Below, in pieces: positions 2,875 to 46,430 of a stretch of DNA of 64,000 nt (position 1 is the first letter of the stretch; the number at the start of each line of letters is the position of its first letter). The notes under the pieces are model-generated. The model was not told the origin of the DNA, made no database searches, and saw only the letters and a program-made list of their open reading frames with translations. The stretch comes from Escherichia phage vB_EcoM_ULIM3, in sequence record OQ850289. One strand, written 5' to 3'. The translations under genes were made by a program, and so were the position numbers.

Positions 2875-3018
2875 AGATAATCCTCTTGTCTTCTGTAATT
2901 TTGAAAGAACAGGTACAGACCAATTTCAGAGGACGAATAGTAGATTAATTCTACCCTTTTTGATTCCTTACAGTGATTGGTATTCTTACCTTTCTTCGGT
3001 TTATTTGATTTTCTCATT
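2856..3018 (-). CDS. small basic protein (start moved to internal ATG with GGAG RBS)
   Basis: ATG at 3018 preceded by AAAGGAG 6 nt upstream; MRKSNKPKKGK... lysine-rich N-terminus. Confidence 0.3.
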
Positions 3019-3115
3019 AAGTCTCCTTTGTAGAACAAGGCAGACCTACAGCTTTAAGTAAGATGGTACAGTAATCCATACAACAAGTCAAGAACTATTG
3101 CAAGTTAAAAAAGTT

Positions 3116-3157
3116 GTTGACAAAGTACTTGACAAGGTGTAGGCTTATAAATACTTA
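3116..3157 (+). promoter_or_regulatory. tandem TTGACA promoter-like block at divergent junction
   Basis: gttgacaaagtacttgacaaggtgt (3116-3140), near-identical to 44996-45020; TAnnnT -10 candidates downstream. Confidence 0.5.
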
Positions 3158-3266
3158 GAAGATAACTTAAAAGGTTCCTCTAAAAAGGCTATTTAAACAG
3201 ATATCTTTCTGGATATCTATCTTTTATCTTAAAAGCCTTTTAAGAGGTCTTATAAGAGGCATACCA

Positions 3267-5300: not shown

Positions 5301-5377
5301 CTCTGTTTAGCTCAGCTTGGTAGAGCGTTCCGTTTGGGGCGGTAAGGCCGGAGGTTCAAGTCCTCCAACAGAGACCA
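5301..5377 (+). tRNA. tRNA-Pro (TGG)
   Basis: acceptor ctctgtt/aacagag (C1-G72, disc A, CCA encoded); anticodon loop tttgggg; T-arm ggagg-ttcaagt-cctcc; one mismatch in anticodon stem. Confidence 0.6.
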
Positions 5378-5384
5378 AATTAAT

Positions 5385-5462
5385 GTTCCAGTAGACAAAA
5401 TGGTAAAGTCACCACTCTTTCAAAGTGGATATTTGAGGGTTCAAATCCCTTCTGGAACGCCA
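5385..5462 (+). tRNA. tRNA-Glu (TTC)
   Basis: acceptor gttccag/ctggaac; anticodon stem ccact/agtgg, loop ctttcaa; T-loop ttcaaat; CCA encoded. Confidence 0.7.
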
Positions 5463-5467
5463 GTTTT

Positions 5468-5544
5468 GACAGAAGACCAATTGCAGCAAACTTAATCTTA
5501 TTCATCTGAAGGTAAATCGGACAAAGAAGAGATTTGGTCTGGTC
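5468..5544 (+). ncRNA. stem-closed element A (CAGAAGACC...GGTCTGG family)
   Basis: 7-bp helix 5474-5480/5534-5540 (AGACCAA:TTGGTCT) closing a 53-nt AT-rich interior; fills the tRNA-sized spacer between two tRNAs. Confidence 0.4.
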
Positions 5545-5553
5545 ATTAAGAAT

Positions 5554-5630
5554 TGCGGGTATAGAGAAAGGGCGTCTCACATGTCTCATTAGCATGGTAT
5601 CGGCAGGTTCGACTCCTGCACCCGCCTCCA
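5554..5630 (+). tRNA. tRNA with CAT anticodon (Met or Ile2)
   Basis: anticodon stem catgt/gcatg, loop ctcatta; T-arm gcagg-ttcgact-cctgc; acceptor 6/7 paired; CCA encoded. Confidence 0.55.
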
Positions 5631-5634
5631 AATT

Positions 5635-5704
5635 TACAGAAGACCGTTTACAGCAAAATTGAATGAAATTTTTAGCGGAAAAAATTGAAAGATACGGTCT
5701 GGTA
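5635..5704 (+). ncRNA. stem-closed element B (CAGAAGACC...GGTCTGG family)
   Basis: 7-bp helix 5641-5647/5694-5700 (AGACCGT:ACGGTCT); first 28 nt identical to element D. Confidence 0.4.
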
Positions 5705-5715
5705 ATACTAAACAT

Positions 5716-5792
5716 GGTTAGGAAGCACATAAGGTATGTGCGGTCGCCTGTTAAGCGAATGGCACAGGGTTCGAATCCCTGACTAACCGCCA
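5716..5792 (+). tRNA. tRNA-Asn (GTT)
   Basis: acceptor ggttagg/actaacc; anticodon loop ctgttaa; T-arm caggg-ttcgaat-ccctg; CCA encoded. Confidence 0.65.
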
Positions 5793-5801
5793 AATTTAAA
5801 T

Positions 5802-5889
5802 GTGTCGTTATCCCGTAGATGGTAGCGGTGGGGACTGTAAATCCCTTGTCATTGAGACTCGGTAGGTTCGACTCCTACACGGCACACCA
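5802..5889 (+). tRNA. tRNA-Tyr (GTA), long variable arm
   Basis: acceptor gtgtcgt/acggcac; anticodon stem gggga/tccct, loop ctgtaaa; ~15-nt variable arm; T-arm gtagg-ttcgact-cctac. Confidence 0.7.
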
Positions 5890-5894
5890 ATAAA

Positions 5895-5971
5895 GGCTAT
5901 GTAGTTTAACTGGAGAAAATACTCCCCTGTCACGGGAGATGATGTGAGTTCAAGTCTCATCGTAGCCGCCA
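5895..5971 (+). tRNA. tRNA-Asp (GTC)
   Basis: acceptor ggctatg/cgtagcc; anticodon stem ctccc/gggag, loop ctgtcac; CCA encoded. Confidence 0.7.
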
Positions 5972-6056
5972 AATTATAATAAGTATTTCAAAATGATGTT
6001 TTGAGAGGGCTATTTAGCCCCTCCCTTAAAGGGTTCTTACGAGTATCCTTTAAAGG

Positions 6057-6134
6057 AGCAGAAGACCAAATTCAGCAAGTTACTTAAAATTTCAAGCCAA
6101 TTTAATTTTGAAAAATTTAAAACTTGGTCTGGCT
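6057..6134 (+). ncRNA. stem-closed element C (CAGAAGACC...GGTCTGG family)
   Basis: 7-bp helix 6063-6069/6124-6130 (AGACCAA:TTGGTCT); interior AT-rich hairpin. Confidence 0.4.
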
Positions 6135-6143
6135 CAACAAATT

Positions 6144-6278
6144 TACAGAAGACCGTTTACAGCAAAACTTAAACAATCTATTTCTCGGTAAAGAAAAGGC
6201 GAAGGTTCGATTCCTTCACTCGGCAGATGTCGAGTTGGTGTAATGGCAGCACTTAAGATGATAAACAACGGTCTGGTA
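6144..6278 (+). ncRNA. stem-closed element D with internal tRNA-like module
   Basis: 8-bp helix 6150-6157/6267-6274 (AGACCGTT:AACGGTCT); interior has T-arm-like gaagg-ttcgatt-ccttc (6201-6217) and D-loop-like agttggtgtaatgg (6231-6246) but no full cloverleaf. Confidence 0.4.
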
Positions 6279-6421
6279 ATTATCTTTGTAGATAAGTTAT
6301 TAAGCTTACCTGTGAGTATGCGACCACAAAGGGTGAAAGGGTAAATTCTAGATTTAAACCCAAAAAGGCACATCGCTACAGACCTTAAGCAAGTCTGGGT
6401 AGCTTATCTACAAAGATAATT
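6278..6421 (+). repeat. 19-bp perfect inverted repeat (6278-6296 / 6403-6421) enclosing 106 nt
   Basis: aattatctttgtagataag and its exact reverse complement; lies between element D and tRNA-Lys. Confidence 0.75.
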
Positions 6422-6425
6422 TAAT

Positions 6426-6501
6426 GGAAGTGTAGCAGAATGGTGATGCGGCAGACTTTTAATCTGACAGGCGATGGGTTCGAATCCCTCCACTTCTACC
6501 A
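6426..6501 (+). tRNA. tRNA-Lys (TTT)
   Basis: acceptor ggaagtg/cacttct; anticodon loop cttttaa; T-loop ttcgaat (T-stem only 3 bp); CCA encoded. Confidence 0.6.
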
Positions 6502-6505
6502 AAAT

Positions 6506-6582
6506 GGTTCAGTCGCAGATAAGGTAATGCAAGGGTCTCATAAGCCCTATGAATGTGGGTTCGATTCCCATCTGAACCTCCA
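6506..6582 (+). tRNA. tRNA-Met (CAT)
   Basis: acceptor ggttcag/ctgaacc; anticodon stem agggt/gccct, loop ctcataa; CCA encoded. Confidence 0.7.
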
Positions 6583-6584
6583 AT

Positions 6585-14617: not shown

Positions 14618-15964
14618 ATGAGTTCGAATATCTTCAGACTTGCTGATAGATTATTCAACCAACCTTTACTAGCCACTGAATCATTAGCTCACTCAGCAGC
14701 AACTTATGTGAATAACAGATTGCTGGGTGATGTCCAAGCAGCAGTAAACTTTGATAAACCTAAAGGTGAAGCAAGAAGTCTTTTAAAAGTAAAAGATGAT
14801 ATTGCTATTATCCCTATTATGGGTGGCTTAACCCATCGTATGACATTCATTGATGCAATGTGCACAGGTGGTTTAAGTTCTTATGAAGGTTTACGCAGAG
14901 GCTTTGACGAAGCTTTAGCAGATGAGTCAATTAAGACTATTGTTCTGCACATTGATTCTGGTGGTGGTGAAGCTTCAGGTTGCTTTGAATTAGCACGTCA
15001 CATTATGGCTTCAAGAGGCCAAAAGAAAATTATTGCTTATGTAGATGAGTTCGCTTGTTCCGCTGCATATGCTCTTGCATCTTCTGCTGAAGAAATTATT
15101 GCATCACCAGATGCAGATGTTGGTTCTATTGGTGTAATCATGGTTCATCAGGAATTAACTAAGGCATTTGAAAAGAATGGCGTAACAATTAACGTCATCA
15201 AAGCTGGTGAGTTTAAAGGTATGGGTTCACCATTCCAAGCACTTTCAGAAGAAAGCAAAGAAAGACTTCAAAAGAGAATTAACGATACCTACGCAACCTT
15301 TACAGGTTTTGTAGCTGAATCTCGTAATCTCTCTGAAGAAGCTGTAAAGAATACTGAGGCGAATGTTTATTCTGCTCAGGAAGCTCTTGAACTTGGTTTA
15401 ATTAATTCAATCATGTCTCAAGATGATTTCTTAAATTACTTACAAGGTTCTGAAGAGGCTCCTGTAAGTTTAAACGTTAACAATTCAGGTGAAGAAATGA
15501 CTGAACAAGAAAAGCAAGAACTAGAAGCTTTGCGTCTTCAGGTTGCTCAAATGAAAGCTAAAGAACAGGAAGCTGCTTTGTCAGATTTGACTAATAAGAT
15601 TTCTGCTTCTGCTGAAGCTTTTGGATTTGATGCAAAAGAAGCTGCAACGACTATTTTAGGTGCTGGTCTTGATAACCCTCTGAGTGTTCTGTTTATGAAT
15701 GCTATGGAAGGTGCTAACCAGAAACTTAATGAAACTATCGCGTCCCATGCTTCTGCAATGGAAGAAAAAGAATCAGAAATTACCAAGCTGAAAGAAACTG
15801 CTGGTGCTGTTCTTGAACATTCCAACGCTATGGAAGAAATGGGTAATGACGGCGAAGCTGATTTGGTTGAAGAAGAAAAAGAACCAGCTAAGAATGCTTC
15901 CGAAGACACCGCTGAACAACGCAAACTGGCTCTCCAGAATGCTCTAAAATCTCTTATCAAATAA
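14618..15964 (+). CDS. prohead protease (S49/ClpP-like) fused to scaffold-like C-terminus
   Basis: IPIMGG...LHIDSGGGEASG...AYVDEFACSAAYALAS S49-type motifs; C-terminal acidic coiled-coil region. Confidence 0.7.
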   Translation: MSSNIFRLADRLFNQPLLATESLAHSAATYVNNRLLGDVQAAVNFDKPKGEARSLLKVKDDIAIIPIMGGLTHRMTFIDAMCTGGLSSYEGLRRGFDEALADESIKTIVLHIDSGGGEASGCFELARHIMASRGQKKIIAYVDEFACSAAYALASSAEEIIASPDADVGSIGVIMVHQELTKAFEKNGVTINVIKAGEFKGMGSPFQALSEESKERLQKRINDTYATFTGFVAESRNLSEEAVKNTEANVYSAQEALELGLINSIMSQDDFLNYLQGSEEAPVSLNVNNSGEEMTEQEKQELEALRLQVAQMKAKEQEAALSDLTNKISASAEAFGFDAKEAATTILGAGLDNPLSVLFMNAMEGANQKLNETIASHASAMEEKESEITKLKETAGAVLEHSNAMEEMGNDGEADLVEEEKEPAKNASEDTAEQRKLALQNALKSLIK

Positions 15965-36812: not shown

Positions 36813-37142
36813 TTAATCTGCCAACCTTAAATTGAAATTAACACCAAATTTTTCACATACTTCCAACATATACTCAAGGGAGACGTTACCAGTGAGATGG
36901 ATTATGTTGGATACACGAGCCTGAGAGATACCACAAATTTTAGCAACTTGCTCTTGAGAAAGGCCTCTGGATTTAATCTCTCTCTTAAAACGATGTGCAA
37001 CGAAGTCTCTCATTTCGTCTACATCCATTGGACAAATATAACTCTCCATTTCAGCCTCTCTATCAGCCTCCCAATCATCTTGTGGGGCATAAGGGTCAAA
37101 AACCTCATTCATCTTTCTTCTTCCGTTTGCGTGAAGTGTCAA
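36813..37142 (-). CDS. XRE-family helix-turn-helix transcriptional regulator
   Basis: LSQEQVAKICGISQARVSNI helix-turn-helix signature. Confidence 0.6.
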   Translation of the reverse strand: MTLHANGRRKMNEVFDPYAPQDDWEADREAEMESYICPMDVDEMRDFVAHRFKREIKSRGLSQEQVAKICGISQARVSNIIHLTGNVSLEYMLEVCEKFGVNFNLRLAD

Positions 37143-42236: not shown

Positions 42237-44936
42237 TTAGTGTACTTCAAGCCAGCTTTTACCAACCTTACCAGTACCTGTAACAAGCGTTTCTTTCTTA
42301 AGGCCTAAGTTCTTAGAAGCTTGTCCATAATACCAGTCAGTAACTGCTTTCACTTCTGCCGTCATACTTTCTGGGCATTCCCAACTCGTCTCATCGTGAT
42401 ATGCGCAGAGTAAGCGAGCACCAATAGCTGGTTGACGACCATTCAACTTCATCAAACCTTCGTCAATCATACGACGACAAGCAAGGTTAATTGCCTCATT
42501 TTGAATCTGAGCCTCTGAACCCATCAAAAGATAGTTCAATAATTTGTGTGGAGATTTACACCACAACCAAGCTCCAGCAACCTTTACAAAGCCCCCTTTA
42601 GAAATTGCAGCAGTCTTACCAAACACCTCTTCAAGAGCCTTTTTAGTTGCTTTGTAGTCAGCTTCCAAGTCATCTAGTAGCTTCTTAATTTTAGGCAAAC
42701 GGATAAAGTAAGTCTGTTTAGTCAGCGCACCTTCCTGAGTAGTCGCAGCTTTAATCGTCTTAGCAAACTTCTCATCACCTGCACCGAATAGCAGTGCATA
42801 GATACCATTCTTAGCTTTCTTACGACCTTTGCTAATCTCATGAAGAAGATTCTCATCCTGAGTAGCTCGACAAGTCAAGATGTCCTGCTCATCGTTCAAG
42901 CTAAAGTAGATACTGTTCAGTGTATGTGCATCAGTCCCTGAATAGACAACGTACAGGTCATTCTCAGAGTCATAGCGAAGGTACTTATCAATCTCTGGGT
43001 TTAGGTACTCATCAAAATGTTTGCAGTAATAGCGTCCATCTTCTTGACGAATGAACTCAATCTCTTCTTTACCTTGCGTTACCGCTTTGGTGAAGTCTTT
43101 GTCACCCATAAAGTTACAAAGGAGAACTAGCTGGGCTGAGTTCATGTCTACAGAGACAACGTTAGTACCTTCTTCACAAATCCACACTGCCCTCATTGGT
43201 TCCCCATAGACAGCAGCACCAGATGGTACGTTTACAATACCATATTGTGTCATACGTCCAGTTGAAGTACCAAACACCATTGCACCAGCACTAAGGCGAC
43301 CATCGGGACGAATCTGGTTCAACCAACCTTTTTCATCATCCTTTGAGTTCTCAATAGTTCTGCGTCGGTGCATCAAAGTATAGTACTTAGCAATCTTCTG
43401 TCCAAGTTCACCTTCAATCGTATCATAAGATGATTCAGTAAGTTTTGGTGAAGTACGGATTAAGCAAGGCTCAAGCAAATCTGTGTATTTCTTCACAGAC
43501 CAGTTATGCTCAATGTACTGGACACCTTCATGTTCAACATAACTTAAACCACATCGTTCCACCATTTCCTGCCACTTAGGATGTTTTGTAATCATCTTTT
43601 TATTGTCTTTGAAACGACAAACTTTGACAGGGCGACCGTCTGAGTCTTTCTTGTAGTTCCAGTCATCTGGAATCCAACCAACTGATTTCAAGTAGTCTTT
43701 AACAACTGCTACCTGAGTCATACGAGAAACTTCAAACTCAATTGGTGTATATGGTGCATCAATCAAACCTGTGTAGCGACTTGACTCAAGTTCAAAGTGG
43801 TTAACAACGTGGCTGTTATAGTACTTCACAGTTTTGACTGTTTTTACTGGCTTCCAGTCTTTGCACTTCTTACCAATCTTTGCATTCAACTCATTGCAAA
43901 TTGCACGAGCATCCTTCATTGCTACAAAACCTTCCTTGTACTCTTCACCAGTTACAGAGTTGGTTGGTGTATAGCAATTTCTCTTTTCAATGTTAAAAAT
44001 CTTCGTAGTTGGCTTACCAAATGGTTTGATTTCGTATGTCTGCATCTCACCATTACGTACCTGCTGACGATACTTTGTCTTAGGGTACTTGGTAATTCTT
44101 TTCAGTCCATCTGCATGACCAAATGTTTCAACATACTCATTCCAAGCTTTTGCAAACTCTTCTCCAGTGACTTTACCTTTGGTCTTAATAGTTGGAGGTA
44201 GATGTGGTTCAACCTCTGAAGCAAGCTCATTAGTCAACTTGTCAAGTTCCTTTACATGGAACTCCATAAGCTCTTTATCAGCTTTCCAACCATTGATAGC
44301 TTGCTGGCTCATCCAGAAAGATGTCTCTTTAGCTCGCATGTAGGTTTCATAAGTGTCTATGCCACACTTCTTAAGCTTGAGATACTCGTTATCAAGTGCC
44401 CGTTTAGTTTTGGCGTTAATACGGATATCTTCTACAACACGAGTGAAGATTTCTGCATTCCACACACCCCAATGCTCAATCTCTGGCTTACGAACACCAA
44501 CACGAGCACCCCATGCAGCCAAGCCATGAGCACCTTTATAACCCTTTGGAGTTGGTCTATCCATCCACTGAACACGAGACTGGATAAGAGAATCCTGAAA
44601 GAAATTACTCCACGGCTTACACTTTGGATTATCAAAGTTCCATAAATCAGGTGCAATGTGATTAAAAACCCACCAGTCATAACCGAGACCGTTATGGATG
44701 CAAAGACGTTTCGCCTTTAATGCAAACTCAATACCTTCACGCAAACCACCCTTAATGTACTTGGTGTACTTGTGACCGAGGATAGGCTCATCTGTAAAAA
44801 CCCATACAGGTGGCTCTTCATCATCAGATTTATAGTCTGCGAAAGCCATTACGTGCACTTTAGTGAACTCAAGGAGTAAACCATCAGTTTCTGTATCACC
44901 AACTAAATGTAAGTTTTTAAAATCTACGTTTTCCAT
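42237..44936 (-). CDS. DNA polymerase, family A, with 3'-5' exonuclease domain
   Basis: exo motif VGDTETDGL; motif B-like KGRKKAKNGIYALLFGAG; motif C YHDE; start set at ATG 44936 with AGAGGGAG RBS. Confidence 0.85.
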   Translation of the reverse strand: MENVDFKNLHLVGDTETDGLLLEFTKVHVMAFADYKSDDEEPPVWVFTDEPILGHKYTKYIKGGLREGIEFALKAKRLCIHNGLGYDWWVFNHIAPDLWNFDNPKCKPWSNFFQDSLIQSRVQWMDRPTPKGYKGAHGLAAWGARVGVRKPEIEHWGVWNAEIFTRVVEDIRINAKTKRALDNEYLKLKKCGIDTYETYMRAKETSFWMSQQAINGWKADKELMEFHVKELDKLTNELASEVEPHLPPTIKTKGKVTGEEFAKAWNEYVETFGHADGLKRITKYPKTKYRQQVRNGEMQTYEIKPFGKPTTKIFNIEKRNCYTPTNSVTGEEYKEGFVAMKDARAICNELNAKIGKKCKDWKPVKTVKTVKYYNSHVVNHFELESSRYTGLIDAPYTPIEFEVSRMTQVAVVKDYLKSVGWIPDDWNYKKDSDGRPVKVCRFKDNKKMITKHPKWQEMVERCGLSYVEHEGVQYIEHNWSVKKYTDLLEPCLIRTSPKLTESSYDTIEGELGQKIAKYYTLMHRRRTIENSKDDEKGWLNQIRPDGRLSAGAMVFGTSTGRMTQYGIVNVPSGAAVYGEPMRAVWICEEGTNVVSVDMNSAQLVLLCNFMGDKDFTKAVTQGKEEIEFIRQEDGRYYCKHFDEYLNPEIDKYLRYDSENDLYVVYSGTDAHTLNSIYFSLNDEQDILTCRATQDENLLHEISKGRKKAKNGIYALLFGAGDEKFAKTIKAATTQEGALTKQTYFIRLPKIKKLLDDLEADYKATKKALEEVFGKTAAISKGGFVKVAGAWLWCKSPHKLLNYLLMGSEAQIQNEAINLACRRMIDEGLMKLNGRQPAIGARLLCAYHDETSWECPESMTAEVKAVTDWYYGQASKNLGLKKETLVTGTGKVGKSWLEVH

Positions 44937-44995
44937 TTTTACTCCCTCTAAAATCATTAACCTCATACATTACTGCAAAAAATTATAAAAAGCAA

Positions 44996-45037
44996 GTTGA
45001 CAATGTACTTGACAAGGTGTTAATCTTTGCGAAGTGG
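44996..45037 (+). promoter_or_regulatory. tandem TTGACA promoter-like block at divergent junction
   Basis: gttgacaatgtacttgacaaggtgt (44996-45020); upstream of first plus-strand replication-block gene. Confidence 0.5.
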
Positions 45038-45193
45038 GTTTTTACTTAAAAGGTTACTTAACAGTTTAACTATACAGATACTTTAAAACTCTTAAAAGAT
45101 TATTTAATAGCTTTTAAAAAGCTTTAAAGTATAACGTATAGAATACGTTAAGATAAAAGATTAAAACTTAATAGTTACTTAAAAGAGGCTTAC

Positions 45194-45616
45194 ATGCAGA
45201 AAATGTTTGTTCACCCAGACATAGCTGACTTTGTTAGAGCTTTGCAGAAGTTGGAAGAACTTGACATTGCTGCTCAACGGGAATATGCTCACCATCACAG
45301 GAGAATGGTTGATATACAACATGAAATAGAGTTGTCTGAAAACTATGAAGATGACTTAAAATGCTCTGTATTTGAGCATATGAAAGATGTTGCTACAGCT
45401 AGACGTAAAGCTAAAGACACAGTTGCTTTACTAGATTCTCTTAAAAAGAGGTTGCAAAGTGGTACAGACCTGTGTAATCTAGCGTCACTGATTAATGATG
45501 TTGAAACTTCTTGGGATAGACATTACTATCCACGTTCTGAAAAGACACTTGACTTTTCTTCATCCGAAAACTTAAAATGTTCTAGAAAGAAACTTAACCA
45601 ACTGAGAGAGAAATAA
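45194..45616 (+). CDS. hypothetical protein
   Basis: 140-aa ORF, first gene after divergent promoter region. Confidence 0.45.
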   Translation: MQKMFVHPDIADFVRALQKLEELDIAAQREYAHHHRRMVDIQHEIELSENYEDDLKCSVFEHMKDVATARRKAKDTVALLDSLKKRLQSGTDLCNLASLINDVETSWDRHYYPRSEKTLDFSSSENLKCSRKKLNQLREK

Positions 45617-45617
45617 T

Positions 45618-46430
45618 ATGAATATCAATGTAGAACAAATGCTTGAAGAAAAAGGTATTGACGAAGCATTCTTAATCAATGCCGTAGAAAGCATGGCTAT
45701 GATTCTTCGTGGAAACAACTATACAGAACAGTTTATGCCTGCAAGCTATAACCTGCCTAAAGACAAGTCTGATAACGGTGCTTTTGCAGAACAGGTTAAT
45801 ATGATGCTGTGTGACAAAACACTTGCTTTAGCATCTATTGTTGTAGGTGTTGATGCTCTTGCAGAGTTCATTTTTTATGAGATGCAGAAAAATGACTATA
45901 TCGCCATGACCTCTGAAGAAAAAGACTCGCTACTGCTCTTAGGTTATGATGAGCTAGTTAACCTATTAATTTCGTCAACGAGTGCTGTTATGGCTGCTCT
46001 TGAGAAGCGCATGGAAGAGAAGCTGTCACGATATGGAAAACTTGATTGGGGTGTAGAGGAATTAAACCCACGAATCAAAGAGATTATCCAGCAAACCAAA
46101 GATTCTTTGGAAGAAGCTGTAAAAAATGATTCTGTAGCTGACATAGAGCCACTTCAGGTGAAAGTTGCATTGATGATTCCAGCCATCTCCACGATGATGA
46201 ATATCGTTGCACTAATCCAGCTTTCACAGATGATGGGCACAAGCATTGAGTTCATTGAGAGTATGACTGGTGGTGTGAGTATGCAAGCAATCAATGATGT
46301 TCTGGTGAGCATTGGTGCTTCAATCATTGAAGAGAAGCTGCGCATTAACTTTGGTGATGATTTTGTGAAGCAAATCTCAGCTATGGCTGAAAAAGAGTAT
46401 TCACAGACTAATACTGACCAACTGCACTAA
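45618..46430 (+). CDS. hypothetical protein
   Basis: 270-aa ORF. Confidence 0.45.
   Translation: MNINVEQMLEEKGIDEAFLINAVESMAMILRGNNYTEQFMPASYNLPKDKSDNGAFAEQVNMMLCDKTLALASIVVGVDALAEFIFYEMQKNDYIAMTSEEKDSLLLLGYDELVNLLISSTSAVMAALEKRMEEKLSRYGKLDWGVEELNPRIKEIIQQTKDSLEEAVKNDSVADIEPLQVKVALMIPAISTMMNIVALIQLSQMMGTSIEFIESMTGGVSMQAINDVLVSIGASIIEEKLRINFGDDFVKQISAMAEKEYSQTNTDQLH

What the first reader, a model, noticed from the sequence alone, without database searches (positions are those of the whole stretch)
44967..45193. AT-rich divergent intergenic region with multiple palindromes next to DNA polymerase
Between the polymerase start (44936, minus) and the first plus-strand gene (45194) the sequence is about three-quarters A+T and contains the tandem TTGACA block, inverted repeats AGCTTTT-A-AAAAGCT (45109-45123) and aacgta-tagaa-tacgtt (45133-45149), and repeated gttacttaa 9-mers. 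Besides early promoters this is a plausible replication-origin region.
Basis: partly seen in the sequence, partly recalled or inferred. Interest (0 to 1): 0.3.

Follow-up and report, generated by a model that had tools for sequence, protein, structure and literature searches.

The report
Felix O1-type phage divergent promoter region
The 257-bp gap between the DNA polymerase gene and the primase-helicase operon of this Felix O1-like phage is a very conserved two-way promoter region followed by the most easily melted DNA in the genome; that makes it a reasonable but unproven candidate for a replication origin.

Summary
The window is a Felixounavirus (99.9% identical to Escherichia phage VpaE1_ev035). 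The palindromes alone are not beyond chance. Four other features are.

- The region is the AT-richest and least stable ~200 bp of the whole 88-kb genome. This also holds in Felix O1 and in the distant Erwinia phage phiEa21-4.
- It carries two back-to-back sigma-70-type promoters. The −35/spacer part of the rightward one (24 bp, with two TTGACA) occurs exactly twice per genome, once in each of the two divergent intergenic regions.
- The ~160-nt stretch downstream holds seven co-oriented 8-bp boxes (CTTWAHAG; 0.3 expected). It also holds a dyad, unique in the genome, with compensatory changes between genera.
- Within the genus the region is about four times less variable than the polymerase gene.

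The best-supported reading is a divergent promoter and control region for the replication genes. An origin role of the promoter-plus-unwinding-element type (T4 oriF/G, T7 phi1.1A/B) is plausible but untested. GC skew does invert here, but it inverts at all four gene-strand switches, so it says nothing about an origin. The same boxes also fill the terminal-repeat region, so they are not origin-specific.

The parts
44937..45193 (.). Whole divergent intergenic region between the DNA polymerase gene (minus strand, start 44936) and ORF97 (plus strand, start 45194). This is 'IGR B'.
   Evidence: It is the AT-richest and least stable 200-bp window of the genome. Within-genus diversity is pi 0.0099, against 0.039 for the polymerase 5' end. 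Identity to Felix O1 is 99.6%, against a genome mean of 93.7%.
44942..44948 (-). Ribosome-binding site GAGGGAG of the DNA polymerase gene, 5 nt before the ATG at 44936.
   Evidence: Read from the sequence. The 899-aa start is the one used in LR699048.1. The alternative ATG at 44966 (909 aa) lies upstream of the predicted transcription start.
44967..44972 (-). Predicted -10 hexamer TAATGT of the leftward (polymerase) promoter.
   Evidence: TAnnGT is kept as TAATGT, TAGGGT or TAGTGT in five phages of three genera. The 17-nt spacer is constant in length but variable in sequence (alignment A1).
44990..44995 (-). Predicted -35 hexamer TTGCTT of the leftward promoter. It lies within the block AAAAAGCAAG, which also serves as the A-tract upstream of the rightward promoter.
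   Evidence: AAAAAGCAAG is invariant in five phages. It sits 1 bp from the rightward -35.
44997..45020 (+). 24-bp twin-TTGACA cassette: -35 TTGACA (44997-45002) plus a spacer containing the second TTGACA (45009-45014).
   Evidence: It occurs exactly twice per genome. In IMG/VR, most complete Felix-type genomes give two loci each. In unrelated phage contigs the same 23 nt is followed directly by TATGAT or TACATT.
45021..45026 (+). Predicted -10 hexamer TAATCT of the rightward promoter (18-nt spacer). The predicted transcription start is near 45033.
   Evidence: This position corresponds to TAGGCT in the second copy and to TATGAT/TACATT in unrelated contigs. Mooglevirus has TAGTCT here. The transcription start is inferred, not mapped.
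45034..45193 (+). Predicted ~160-nt untranslated leader, which is also the AT-rich candidate unwinding element (78.6% A+T over 45040-45193).
   Evidence: rank 1 at 200 bp and rank 1-2 at 100 bp for lowest duplex stability in VpaE1_ev035 and Felix O1. No ORF of 20 aa or more lies inside. No Rfam match.
45045..45052 (+). CTTWAHAG box 1 (CTTAAAAG).
   Evidence: Between genera it changes only to CTTAATAG.
45057..45064 (+). CTTWAHAG box 2 (CTTAACAG).
   Evidence: Becomes CTTTACAG or CTTTATAG in other genera.
45070..45077 (+). Box 3 (CTATACAG), followed by ACAGAT.
   Evidence: Invariant in five phages. ACAGAT is invariant in all nine aligned sequences, including the four Kolesnikvirus-type phages.
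45091..45098 (+). CTTWAHAG box 4 (CTTAAAAG).
   Evidence: Invariant in five phages.
45122..45129 (+). CTTWAHAG box 5 (CTTTAAAG, itself a palindrome).
   Evidence: The Kolesnikvirus-type phages have CTTTACAG or CTTTATAG at the aligned position.
45167..45174 (+). CTTWAHAG box 6 (CTTAATAG).
45178..45185 (+). CTTWAHAG box 7 (CTTAAAAG). It overlaps the ORF97 ribosome-binding site AAGAGG (45183-45188).
45078..45132 (.). Long imperfect palindrome: 27-nt arms, 78% complementary, centre at 45105. It contains AGCTTTTAAAAAGCT (45109-45123).
   Evidence: I1. The fold z-score is -2.3 as RNA and -2.2 as DNA. No covariation is available because the segment hardly varies.
45132..45150 (.). Dyad TAACGTAT-AGA-ATACGTTA: either an operator-like site or a leader hairpin.
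   Evidence: Unique in the 88-kb genome. Two of its pairs change on both sides between genera, C-G to T-A and T-A to A-T. RNA hairpin energy is -3.5 to -5.8 kcal/mol in four phages.
3117..3145 (+). Second copy of the twin-TTGACA cassette (3117-3140) with -10 TAGGCT (3140-3145), in the other divergent intergenic region ('IGR A', about 3018-3266).
   Evidence: It drives ORF41 (DUF5681), ORF42 and a cluster of 26 tRNA genes.
3165..3245 (+). Leader module of IGR A paralogous to 45044-45080: ACTTAAAAGGTT, then ACAGATA. It has boxes at 3166, 3180 and 3228 (+) and 3237 (-), and a hairpin at 3199-3218.
   Evidence: Alignment A2. Identity to Felix O1 is 99.1%.
36813..37112 (-). Gene for a 98-aa Cro/C1-type helix-turn-helix protein, in the transcription unit downstream of the polymerase gene. 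It is the only recognisable sequence-specific DNA-binding protein I found, so it is a candidate binder of the dyad. The link is weak and purely inferred.
   Evidence: Pfam HTH_3, E = 4.8e-10. PHROG transcriptional regulator, E = 2e-25. Located in the window.

Best explanation
The region is a back-to-back divergent promoter and control region for the phage's replication genes.

Host sigma-70 RNA polymerase is predicted to bind two promoters whose -35 hexamers are 1 bp apart.
- Leftward promoter: -35 TTGCTT (44995-44990), 17-nt spacer, -10 TAATGT (44972-44967). The transcript should start near 44960 and reach the polymerase ATG at 44936 through a ~24-nt leader.
- Rightward promoter: an A-tract, -35 TTGACA (44997-45002), an 18-nt spacer that includes the second TTGACA, and a weak -10 TAATCT (45021-45026). 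The transcript should start near 45033. It would carry a ~160-nt AT-rich leader into the operon of ORF97, ORF98, dNMP kinase and primase-helicase.

The leader holds seven co-oriented CTTWAHAG boxes and one dyad. I infer these are binding sites, in DNA or RNA, for an unidentified factor, most likely phage-encoded, that sets the timing or level of expression.

The same promoter cassette and first boxes are duplicated in the other divergent region. That would co-regulate the ORF41-ORF42-tRNA unit with the replication genes.

Shown: the sequence elements, their non-randomness, their duplication and their conservation pattern. Inferred: the transcription starts, factor binding and the regulatory effect.
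For: - Promoter footprint: conserved hexamers with a spacer of constant length but variable sequence in three genera.
- The identical 23-nt -35/spacer cassette is followed by the near-consensus -10 TATGAT, or by TACATT, in unrelated phage contigs. It is followed by TAGGCT in IGR A.
- The genome has a visible promoter class of A-tract, TTGACA, 17-18 nt and TAnnnT upstream of many genes.
- The cassette occurs exactly twice per genome, in the only two divergent regions.
- Published RT-PCR on Felix O1 places ORFs 41, 42, 96, 97, 98, 99 and 101 in the same expression class, peaking at 25 min (PMC3185647, Table 3). That paper assumed divergent promoters here but could not find them.
- Felix O1 and VpaE1 are produced from naked DNA in an all-E. 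coli cell-free system, so host polymerase can start the programme (PMC13591810).
- There are seven boxes against 0.31 expected. Substitutions between genera stay within CTTWAHAG. The dyad shows compensatory changes.
- Purifying selection: pi 0.0099 against 0.039 for the polymerase gene and 0.105 for ORF98. The region is in the top 1% of 250-bp windows for identity to Felix O1.
Against: - No transcription start has been mapped. Both -10 hexamers are weak, and the consensus scan did not call either promoter.
- No binding factor is identified. The adjacent ORF97 and ORF98 gave no informative fold.
- Simple promoters do not need 160 bp of conserved AT-rich DNA, nor to be the least stable site in the genome in three genera. 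Something more than promoters is under selection.
- The boxes also fill the non-coding terminal-repeat region, which a purely transcriptional role does not obviously explain.
Confidence: 0.65

Rival explanations
1. Transcription-activated replication origin. This could hold in addition to the promoter function. A transcript from the twin-TTGACA promoter would form a persistent RNA-DNA hybrid (R-loop) in the downstream AT-rich stretch (45034-45190), which acts as an unwinding element. The RNA 3' end would prime leading-strand synthesis by the phage family-A polymerase, and the displaced strand would load the T7 gp4-like primase-helicase. The second divergent region (3117-3266) would be a second origin. 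Every gene would then be co-oriented with its replication fork.
For: - The promoter is followed directly by the least stable DNA of the genome in VpaE1_ev035, Felix O1 and phiEa21-4. In phiEa21-4 the homologous region ranks first at 100 and 200 bp and the IGR A homologue ranks second at 100 bp.
- The site lies between the polymerase gene and the primase-helicase operon.
- The replication genes are of T7 type: family-A polymerase, gp4-like primase-helicase and a gene 6-like exonuclease.
- Every T7 origin needs a promoter, the primary origins are phi1.1A and phi1.1B, and other promoters serve as secondary origins (PMC8373140).
- Local minima of cumulative GC skew fall at both divergent regions.
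Against: - No replication data exist for any Felix O1-type phage in the papers I could search.
- GC skew is fully confounded with gene orientation.
- In T4 the unwinding element works without specific sequence. Here the sequence itself is strongly conserved and built of specific boxes, which points to sequence-specific recognition rather than mere melting.
- The boxes are not origin-specific, since 36 of them lie in the terminal-repeat region.
- There are no DnaA, IHF or Fis sites, no GATC and no 13-mer-type elements, and no recognisable initiator gene nearby.
Confidence: 0.25
2. RNA-level leader element. The first ~50-160 nt of the rightward transcript, and its paralogue in the other divergent region, would act in the RNA. 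It could make RNA polymerase resistant to the many terminators inside the long operons, as lambda nut or HK022 put sites do. Alternatively it could bind a translational or stability regulator through the repeated CUUAAAAG motifs and the hairpin.
For: - A shared module follows the same promoter in both divergent regions, and a looser version follows a third twin-TTGACA promoter at L002:13312.
- All seven boxes share the direction of transcription. In the terminal region the boxes are also co-oriented with incoming transcription on each side.
- The hairpin at 45132-45150 keeps pairing through two compensatory changes.
- The Felix O1 paper notes that read-through of the numerous internal terminators is unexplained.
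- ORF42, in the IGR A unit, belongs to a PHROG annotated as RNA-binding protein.
Against: - No Rfam family matches.
- The overall fold is only modestly better than shuffles, z = -2.3.
- No covariation is seen outside one hairpin.
- The resemblance to boxA/boxB is recalled from memory and sits in AT-rich sequence, where such matches are cheap.
- The Kolesnikvirus-type phages have a second, near-consensus promoter downstream of the boxes (TTGACT, 18 nt, TATGAT). There, much of the expression would bypass the leader.
Confidence: 0.15
3. Ordinary AT-rich spacer. The palindromes and repeats would be chance products of low-complexity sequence around two promoters, with no further function.
For: Palindrome length and number are within what shuffled sequence of the same composition gives (P = 0.21 and 0.12). 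AT-rich intergenic DNA is common in phages.
Against: - The box count is far beyond chance: 7 against 0.31, never reached in 2000 shuffles.
- Diversity is fourfold lower than in the polymerase coding sequence.
- The region is in the top 1% for identity to Felix O1.
- Between genera the leader is as conserved (82-85%) as the polymerase gene (85-86%) and more than ORF97 (68-78%).
- The stability minimum is conserved in phiEa21-4 although the sequence has diverged.
Confidence: 0.03

Closest known systems
[quoted passage not shown]
   Same: A host-polymerase promoter with a TAnnnT -10 is followed immediately by the most AT-rich, least stable DNA. Both lie in a large virulent myovirus that encodes its own replisome. 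More than one such site per genome is possible.
   Different: No R-loop or replication data exist here. The T4 promoters depend on MotA, whereas this one has a consensus TTGACA -35. The T4 unwinding element needs no specific sequence, whereas this stretch is strongly sequence-conserved and made of repeated boxes. The replisome here is T7-like, not T4-like.
T7 primary origin: tandem promoters phi1.1A and phi1.1B, with other promoters acting as secondary origins (PMC8373140). That an AT-rich segment follows the promoters is from my own knowledge.
   Same: The phage has T7-type replication genes (family-A polymerase, gp4-like primase-helicase) and a linear genome with direct terminal repeats. Two closely spaced promoter-like -35 elements are followed by AT-rich DNA. 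A second promoter region could serve as an alternative origin.
   Different: This phage has no RNA polymerase of its own, so any primer transcript would come from host polymerase. The two TTGACA are 12 bp apart, so they are one promoter with a TTGACA in its spacer rather than two separate promoters.
Divergent promoters assumed, and promoter P41 predicted, in the Felix O1 genome paper (PMC3185647)
   Same: Same two loci. The paper assumed divergent promoters between genes 96 and 97 (this region). It predicted P41, TTGACA(N15)TATAGG, between genes 40 and 41, which is the other copy of the cassette.
   Different: The paper reported no recognisable promoter in the 96-97 region. It did not note the shared 24-bp cassette, the box array, the dyad or the stability minimum.
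Iteron-type phage origins such as lambda ori (from my own knowledge)
   Same: Several co-oriented short direct repeats lie next to an AT-rich stretch, close to the replication genes.
   Different: The repeats are only 8 bp with irregular spacing (12, 13, 21, 31, 45, 11 bp), not 17-22-bp iterons in a regular array. No initiator gene is recognisable. The same boxes occur in dozens of copies elsewhere.
Short-repeat arrays flanking the T7 terminal repeats (recalled from the T7 genome literature; not checked here)
   Same: In this phage the box family is densest in and around the 581-bp terminal repeat, at roughly one box per helical turn. That arrangement resembles the arrays I recall next to the T7 terminal repeat.
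   Different: This concerns the terminal region, which lies outside the window, not IGR B itself. The function of the T7 arrays is also not settled, so the comparison explains little.

Membership tests
Sigma-70-type bacterial promoter (rightward, ORF97 operon) | -35 hexamer close to TTGACA | tested here: met
   TTGACA at 44997-45002, invariant in three genera and preceded by an A-tract.
Sigma-70-type bacterial promoter (rightward, ORF97 operon) | -10 hexamer TAnnnT placed 16-18 nt downstream | tested here: met
   TAATCT at 45021-45026 with an 18-nt spacer. This is a weak match, 3 of 6, so the consensus scan missed it. The same position holds TATGAT, TACATT or TAGGCT after the identical cassette elsewhere.
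Sigma-70-type bacterial promoter (rightward, ORF97 operon) | Transcription actually starts about 7 nt after the -10 | not testable with these tools
   No transcript 5'-end data for any Felix O1-type phage were found.
Sigma-70-type bacterial promoter (leftward, polymerase gene) | Conserved -35 and -10 hexamers with constant spacer length | tested here: met
   TTGCTT, 17 nt, TAnnGT in five phages. The spacer sequence varies while its length is fixed.
Promoter-plus-unwinding-element origin (T4 oriF/oriG type) | Promoter directed into the element | tested here: met
   The twin-TTGACA promoter points into 45034-45193. It is a predicted promoter only.
Promoter-plus-unwinding-element origin (T4 oriF/oriG type) | A+T-rich, easily unwound DNA immediately downstream | tested here: met
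   78.6% A+T. The region has the lowest nearest-neighbour stability in the genome at 200 bp in VpaE1_ev035 and Felix O1, and at both 100 and 200 bp in phiEa21-4.
Promoter-plus-unwinding-element origin (T4 oriF/oriG type) | Persistent R-loop and initiation of DNA synthesis at the site | not testable with these tools
   This needs marker-frequency, plasmid-amplification or R-loop experiments.
Promoter-plus-unwinding-element origin (T4 oriF/oriG type) | Compositional-skew inflection attributable to replication | tested here: inconclusive
   A local minimum of cumulative GC skew is present, but all four skew switches coincide with gene-strand switches.
Iteron-type origin (lambda-like) | Regular array of 17-22-bp initiator-binding repeats | tested here: not met
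   The repeats are 8 bp with irregular spacing of 11-45 bp.
Iteron-type origin (lambda-like) | Initiator protein gene adjacent to or containing the origin | tested here: not met
   ORF97 and ORF98 have no Pfam domain. The ORF97 model is a helical hairpin with no significant PDB match. The ORF98 model has low confidence.
Host-type origin (oriC-like) | DnaA boxes, 13-mer unwinding repeats, GATC clusters, IHF or Fis sites | tested here: not met
   None found on either strand.
Known structured RNA family (Rfam) | Match to a curated covariance model | tested here: not met
   Only chance-level hits, E of 0.57 or more and far below the gathering scores.

The most novel reading that the evidence does not exclude
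The two divergent intergenic regions would be the phage's replication origins, of a host-polymerase-primed promoter-plus-unwinding-element type. The CTTWAHAG boxes mark both of these regions and also pave the terminal-repeat region. They would be binding sites for a single, still unidentified phage protein that couples replication initiation, middle-gene transcription and processing of the genome ends. That would define a cis-element system conserved across the subfamily Ounavirinae.
Probability: 0.12. Interest if true: 0.7.

Novelty: new member of a known kind. Interest (0 to 1): 0.38.

Why it matters
Felix O1 and its relatives are among the most used Salmonella and E. coli phages for typing, biocontrol and therapy. 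Even so, the Felix O1 genome paper states that their promoters, temporal control and terminator read-through are unknown (PMC3185647), and I found no mapped origin.

This analysis gives concrete, testable coordinates for the two promoters that drive the replication genes. It identifies a duplicated promoter cassette that links them to the tRNA operon. It also defines an 8-bp box family and a dyad that are clearly under selection.

If the AT-rich leader proves to be an origin, Felix O1-type phages would gain a defined replicator. That would help genome engineering and cell-free rebooting. If it does not, the region is still the main control point for the replication module. In both cases the biology is an extension of known kinds, not a new principle.

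Tried and rejected
- **GC skew as an origin test.** The inflection is present but is explained by gene orientation: four switches match four strand switches.
- **Palindromes as evidence of function.** They are not beyond chance by shuffling. Only the 45132-45150 dyad is retained, because of covariation and uniqueness.
- **T4-type late promoter.** TATAAATA occurs in the second divergent region but only five times in the genome, and not upstream of late genes. Rejected.
- **Known RNA family.** The Rfam search found nothing meaningful.
- **Small ORF inside the region.** None of 20 aa or more.
- **Host-factor sites.** No IHF, DnaA or Fis sites, no GATC and no 13-mers.
- **ORF97 as an origin-binding or regulatory protein.**
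  - No Pfam domain and only a PHROG of unknown function.
  - No PDB sequence match.
  - The AlphaFold model (pLDDT 72.5) is a helical hairpin with no Foldseek hit below E = 0.1.
- **ORF98.** The model has pLDDT 46.6, too poor to search with.
- **A proximal second promoter.** The Kolesnikvirus-type phages have one (TTGACT, 18 nt, TATGAT), but no conserved TAnnnT exists at that position in Felixounavirus, Suspvirus or Mooglevirus.
- **Literature.** Searches for Felix O1-type transcriptomes, mapped promoters or origins found none. The section I read of the PhageMaP study of the Felixounavirus Bas63 (section 6) gives no intergenic result for this locus.
- **The unrelated contigs that share the promoter cassette.** They have no close relative in the phage collection.
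Full report
**Identity of the window**

The window is a Felix O1-type myovirus of the genus Felixounavirus. The 2.5 kb around the finding is 99.9% identical to Escherichia phage VpaE1_ev035 (LR699048.1) and matches about 260 phage records. Its polymerase protein is identical to that of phage wV8.

The finding lies between two transcription units. The family-A DNA polymerase gene is on the minus strand. A plus-strand operon contains ORF97 (140 aa), ORF98, dNMP kinase, a T7 gp4-like primase-helicase and an exonuclease. I call this region IGR B.

The whole genome has four transcription blocks and only two divergent junctions. One is IGR B. The other, IGR A, lies at window positions about 3018-3266.

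**Check of the observation**

A+T is 74.9% over 44967-45193, against 61% for the genome. This is not just "AT-rich": it is the AT-richest window of that size in the whole 88-kb genome, at 0.758 against 0.718 for the next peak. It also has the lowest nearest-neighbour duplex stability at 200 bp, and ranks first or second at 100 bp, in both VpaE1_ev035 and Felix O1.

The palindromes alone are not beyond what shuffled sequence of the same dinucleotide content gives (P = 0.21 and 0.12). The repeated 9-mers are mildly significant (P = 0.0125).

Other features are highly non-random:
- The 24-bp block TTGACAAWGTACTTGACAAGGTGT occurs exactly twice in the genome, at 44997-45020 and 3117-3140. Both copies are on the plus strand, one in each divergent junction.
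- The short repeats resolve into seven co-oriented copies of an 8-bp box, CTWWAHAG, where 0.31 are expected. Six of the seven fit the narrower form CTTWAHAG. The count was never reached in 2000 shuffles.

**The promoters**

The rightward promoter is supported by three comparisons.
- The genome has a visible promoter class of A-tract, TTGACA, 17-18 nt and TAnnnT upstream of many genes. The first TTGACA of the block, with its upstream AAAAAG, fits that class.
- A scan of IMG/VR for the 23-nt core found 52 loci. Most complete Felix-type genomes gave two loci each.
- Seven of those loci are from unrelated phages. One contig, checked by PHROG scan, carries its own terminase and a glucosyltransferase, and another has no close relative in the phage collection. 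In these seven loci the identical core is followed directly by TATGAT or TACATT.

The block is therefore the -35 hexamer plus spacer of a promoter. The second TTGACA sits inside the spacer. The -10 is TAATCT at 45021-45026 in IGR B and TAGGCT at 3140-3145 in IGR A. The predicted transcription start in IGR B is near 45033.

The leftward promoter shows the classic footprint in an alignment of Felixounavirus, Suspvirus and Mooglevirus sequences. It has a conserved -35 TTGCTT (44995-44990), a 17-nt spacer of constant length but variable sequence, and a conserved -10 TAnnGT (TAATGT, 44972-44967). This puts the start near 44960. The polymerase start codon must then be the ATG at 44936, which has a GAGGGAG ribosome-binding site. 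The upstream ATG at 44966 that some records annotate cannot be the start.

The two -35 hexamers are 1 bp apart, a back-to-back divergent arrangement.

The Felix O1 genome paper assumed divergent promoters here but reported finding none in this region. It stated that temporal regulation and terminator read-through are unexplained (PMC3185647). Its RT-PCR table places ORFs 41, 42, 96, 97, 98, 99 and 101 in the same class, peaking at 25 min. These are the genes downstream of both copies of the cassette plus the polymerase gene. This fits co-regulation through the shared cassette.

**The leader**

Downstream of the rightward promoter lie about 160 nt with no ORF and no Rfam match. The seven boxes start at 45045, 45057, 45070, 45091, 45122, 45167 and 45178. 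The last overlaps the ORF97 ribosome-binding site.

Between genera, substitutions stay inside the box definition. Positions 4 and 6 vary, while C1, T2, T3, A5, A7 and G8 do not.

The dyad TAACGTAT-AGA-ATACGTTA (45132-45150) is unique in the genome. It keeps its symmetry through two changes that affect both arms, and it can form a modest hairpin in all four phages tested. A longer imperfect palindrome (45078-45132) is predicted to fold somewhat better than shuffles (z about -2.3). It varies too little to test.

IGR A shares more than the promoter. It also has ACTTAAAAGGTT at the same distance, then further boxes, ACAGATA and a hairpin. A third promoter with two TTGACA, outside the window (L002:13312), is also followed by tandem boxes.

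**Conservation**

- Among 21 distinct Felix-type sequences, nucleotide diversity is 0.0099 in the region. It is 0.039 in the polymerase 5' end, 0.017 in ORF97 and 0.105 in ORF98. The minimum, about 0.003, spans 45100-45299.
- Identity to Felix O1 is 99.6% here and 99.1% in IGR A, against a genome mean of 93.7%. That places IGR B in the top 1% of 250-bp windows.
- Between genera the leader is 82-85% identical. This is similar to the polymerase coding sequence (85-86%) and higher than ORF97 (68-78%).
- In the distant Erwinia phage phiEa21-4 (polymerase 64% identical), the homologous region is again the least stable 100-bp and 200-bp window of the genome. It is also the densest cluster of boxes there. 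The IGR A homologue ranks second at 100 bp.

The whole region is therefore under purifying selection, and both low stability and the boxes are kept across the subfamily.

**Is it an origin?**

The architecture matches the best-defined transcription-dependent phage origins. [quoted passage not shown] Every T7 origin requires a promoter; the primary origins are phi1.1A and phi1.1B, and other promoters act as back-ups (PMC8373140). The phage has T7-type replication genes.

Its genome is linear with direct terminal repeats. The 581-bp repeat annotated in phage Pr103Blw (PMC8303462) maps to LR699048.1 positions about 15142-15722. That puts IGR B about 58% of the way from the left end.

If both divergent junctions were origins, all genes would be co-oriented with replication.

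None of this is evidence of initiation, and several points count against an origin reading:
- The cumulative GC-skew minimum at the region is real, but skew changes sign at all four gene-strand switches, so it follows transcription.
- The T4 unwinding element works without specific sequence. Here the sequence is conserved and built of boxes, which argues for sequence-specific recognition.
- The boxes are not specific to this region. There are 183 in the genome against 59 ± 9 expected. Of these, 36 lie in the 1.6-kb non-coding stretch that contains the terminal repeat, in places spaced about one helical turn apart.
- There are no DnaA, IHF or Fis sites, no GATC and no 13-mer-type elements.
- No initiator-like gene is present. 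ORF97 and ORF98 have no known domains and gave uninformative models.

**Verdict**

I rate the divergent promoter and control region as the primary function, with confidence 0.65. A superimposed origin of the promoter-plus-unwinding-element type gets 0.25, and the two are not mutually exclusive. An RNA-level leader function, such as antitermination or translational control, gets 0.15. "Nothing but AT-rich spacer" gets 0.03.

The kind of element is known, and the locus had already been guessed to hold divergent promoters. What is new is the precise anatomy: the duplicated cassette, the box family shared with the terminal region, the covarying dyad, and the conserved stability minimum. These give a clear set of experiments. 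Interest is moderate.

Noticed in passing
L002:14676-16322 (LR699048.1; outside the window, which starts about 5 kb further on): A 1.6-kb non-coding stretch between two converging transcription units is packed with the same box family: 36 CTWWAHAG hits, in places about 11 bp apart. Boxes are plus-oriented on the left and minus-oriented (CTGTTAAG) on the right. The 581-bp direct terminal repeat annotated in phage Pr103Blw maps inside it (about 15142-15722), so this is the region of the genome ends. The function of the arrays is unknown.
   Followed up: partly
window 44936-44966: Some database records (for example OQ850290.1) start the DNA polymerase at the ATG at 44966 (909 aa). The strong ribosome-binding site and the predicted promoter place the true start at 44936 (899 aa), as in LR699048.1.
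   Followed up: yes
L036, L048, L051, L064, L073, L077, L082 (IMG/VR contigs): The exact 23-nt promoter core TTGACAAAG(C/T)ACTTGACAAGGTG, followed by TATGAT or TACATT, occurs in contigs from unrelated phages. L077, checked by PHROG scan, carries its own terminase, a glucosyltransferase and a Holliday junction resolvase. L064 has no megablast match in the phage collection. An identical promoter core shared by unrelated phages suggests transfer or strong convergence.
   Followed up: partly
L002:13312-13400 (outside the window): A third promoter with two TTGACA (TTGACAATACCCCTTGACA, -10 TAACTT) lies upstream of the Felix O1 ORF22 homologue. It is also followed by tandem boxes (CTAAAAGG, CTTAAAAG). 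ORF22 is in the 5-min expression class, unlike the genes behind the other two copies.
   Followed up: no
window 45200-45299 and 45261-45289: The valley of low diversity extends about 100 nt into ORF97 (pi 0.0028, so synonymous sites are included). It contains a good promoter-like site, TTGACA-17 nt-TATGCT. The site is kept in Suspvirus (TACGCT) but not cleanly in Mooglevirus.
   Followed up: partly
window 45618-46430: ORF98 is annotated 'minor tail protein' in many records and in its PHROG. However, it sits in the replication operon, is not among the virion proteins found by mass spectrometry in the Felix O1 paper, and peaks with the replication genes at 25 min. The annotation looks doubtful. 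The structure prediction was too poor to help.
   Followed up: partly
window 5301-10245: ARAGORN finds 26 tRNA genes, all on the plus strand, downstream of the IGR A promoter. LR699048.1 annotates its tRNAs on the minus strand, which appears to be an annotation error. NC_005282.1 has them on the plus strand.
   Followed up: yes
window between about 3300 and 44900: The offset between window and LR699048.1 coordinates differs by 293 bp between IGR A (20930) and IGR B (21223). The window therefore lacks about 293 bp that the closest database record has somewhere between the two regions. The indel was not located.
   Followed up: no
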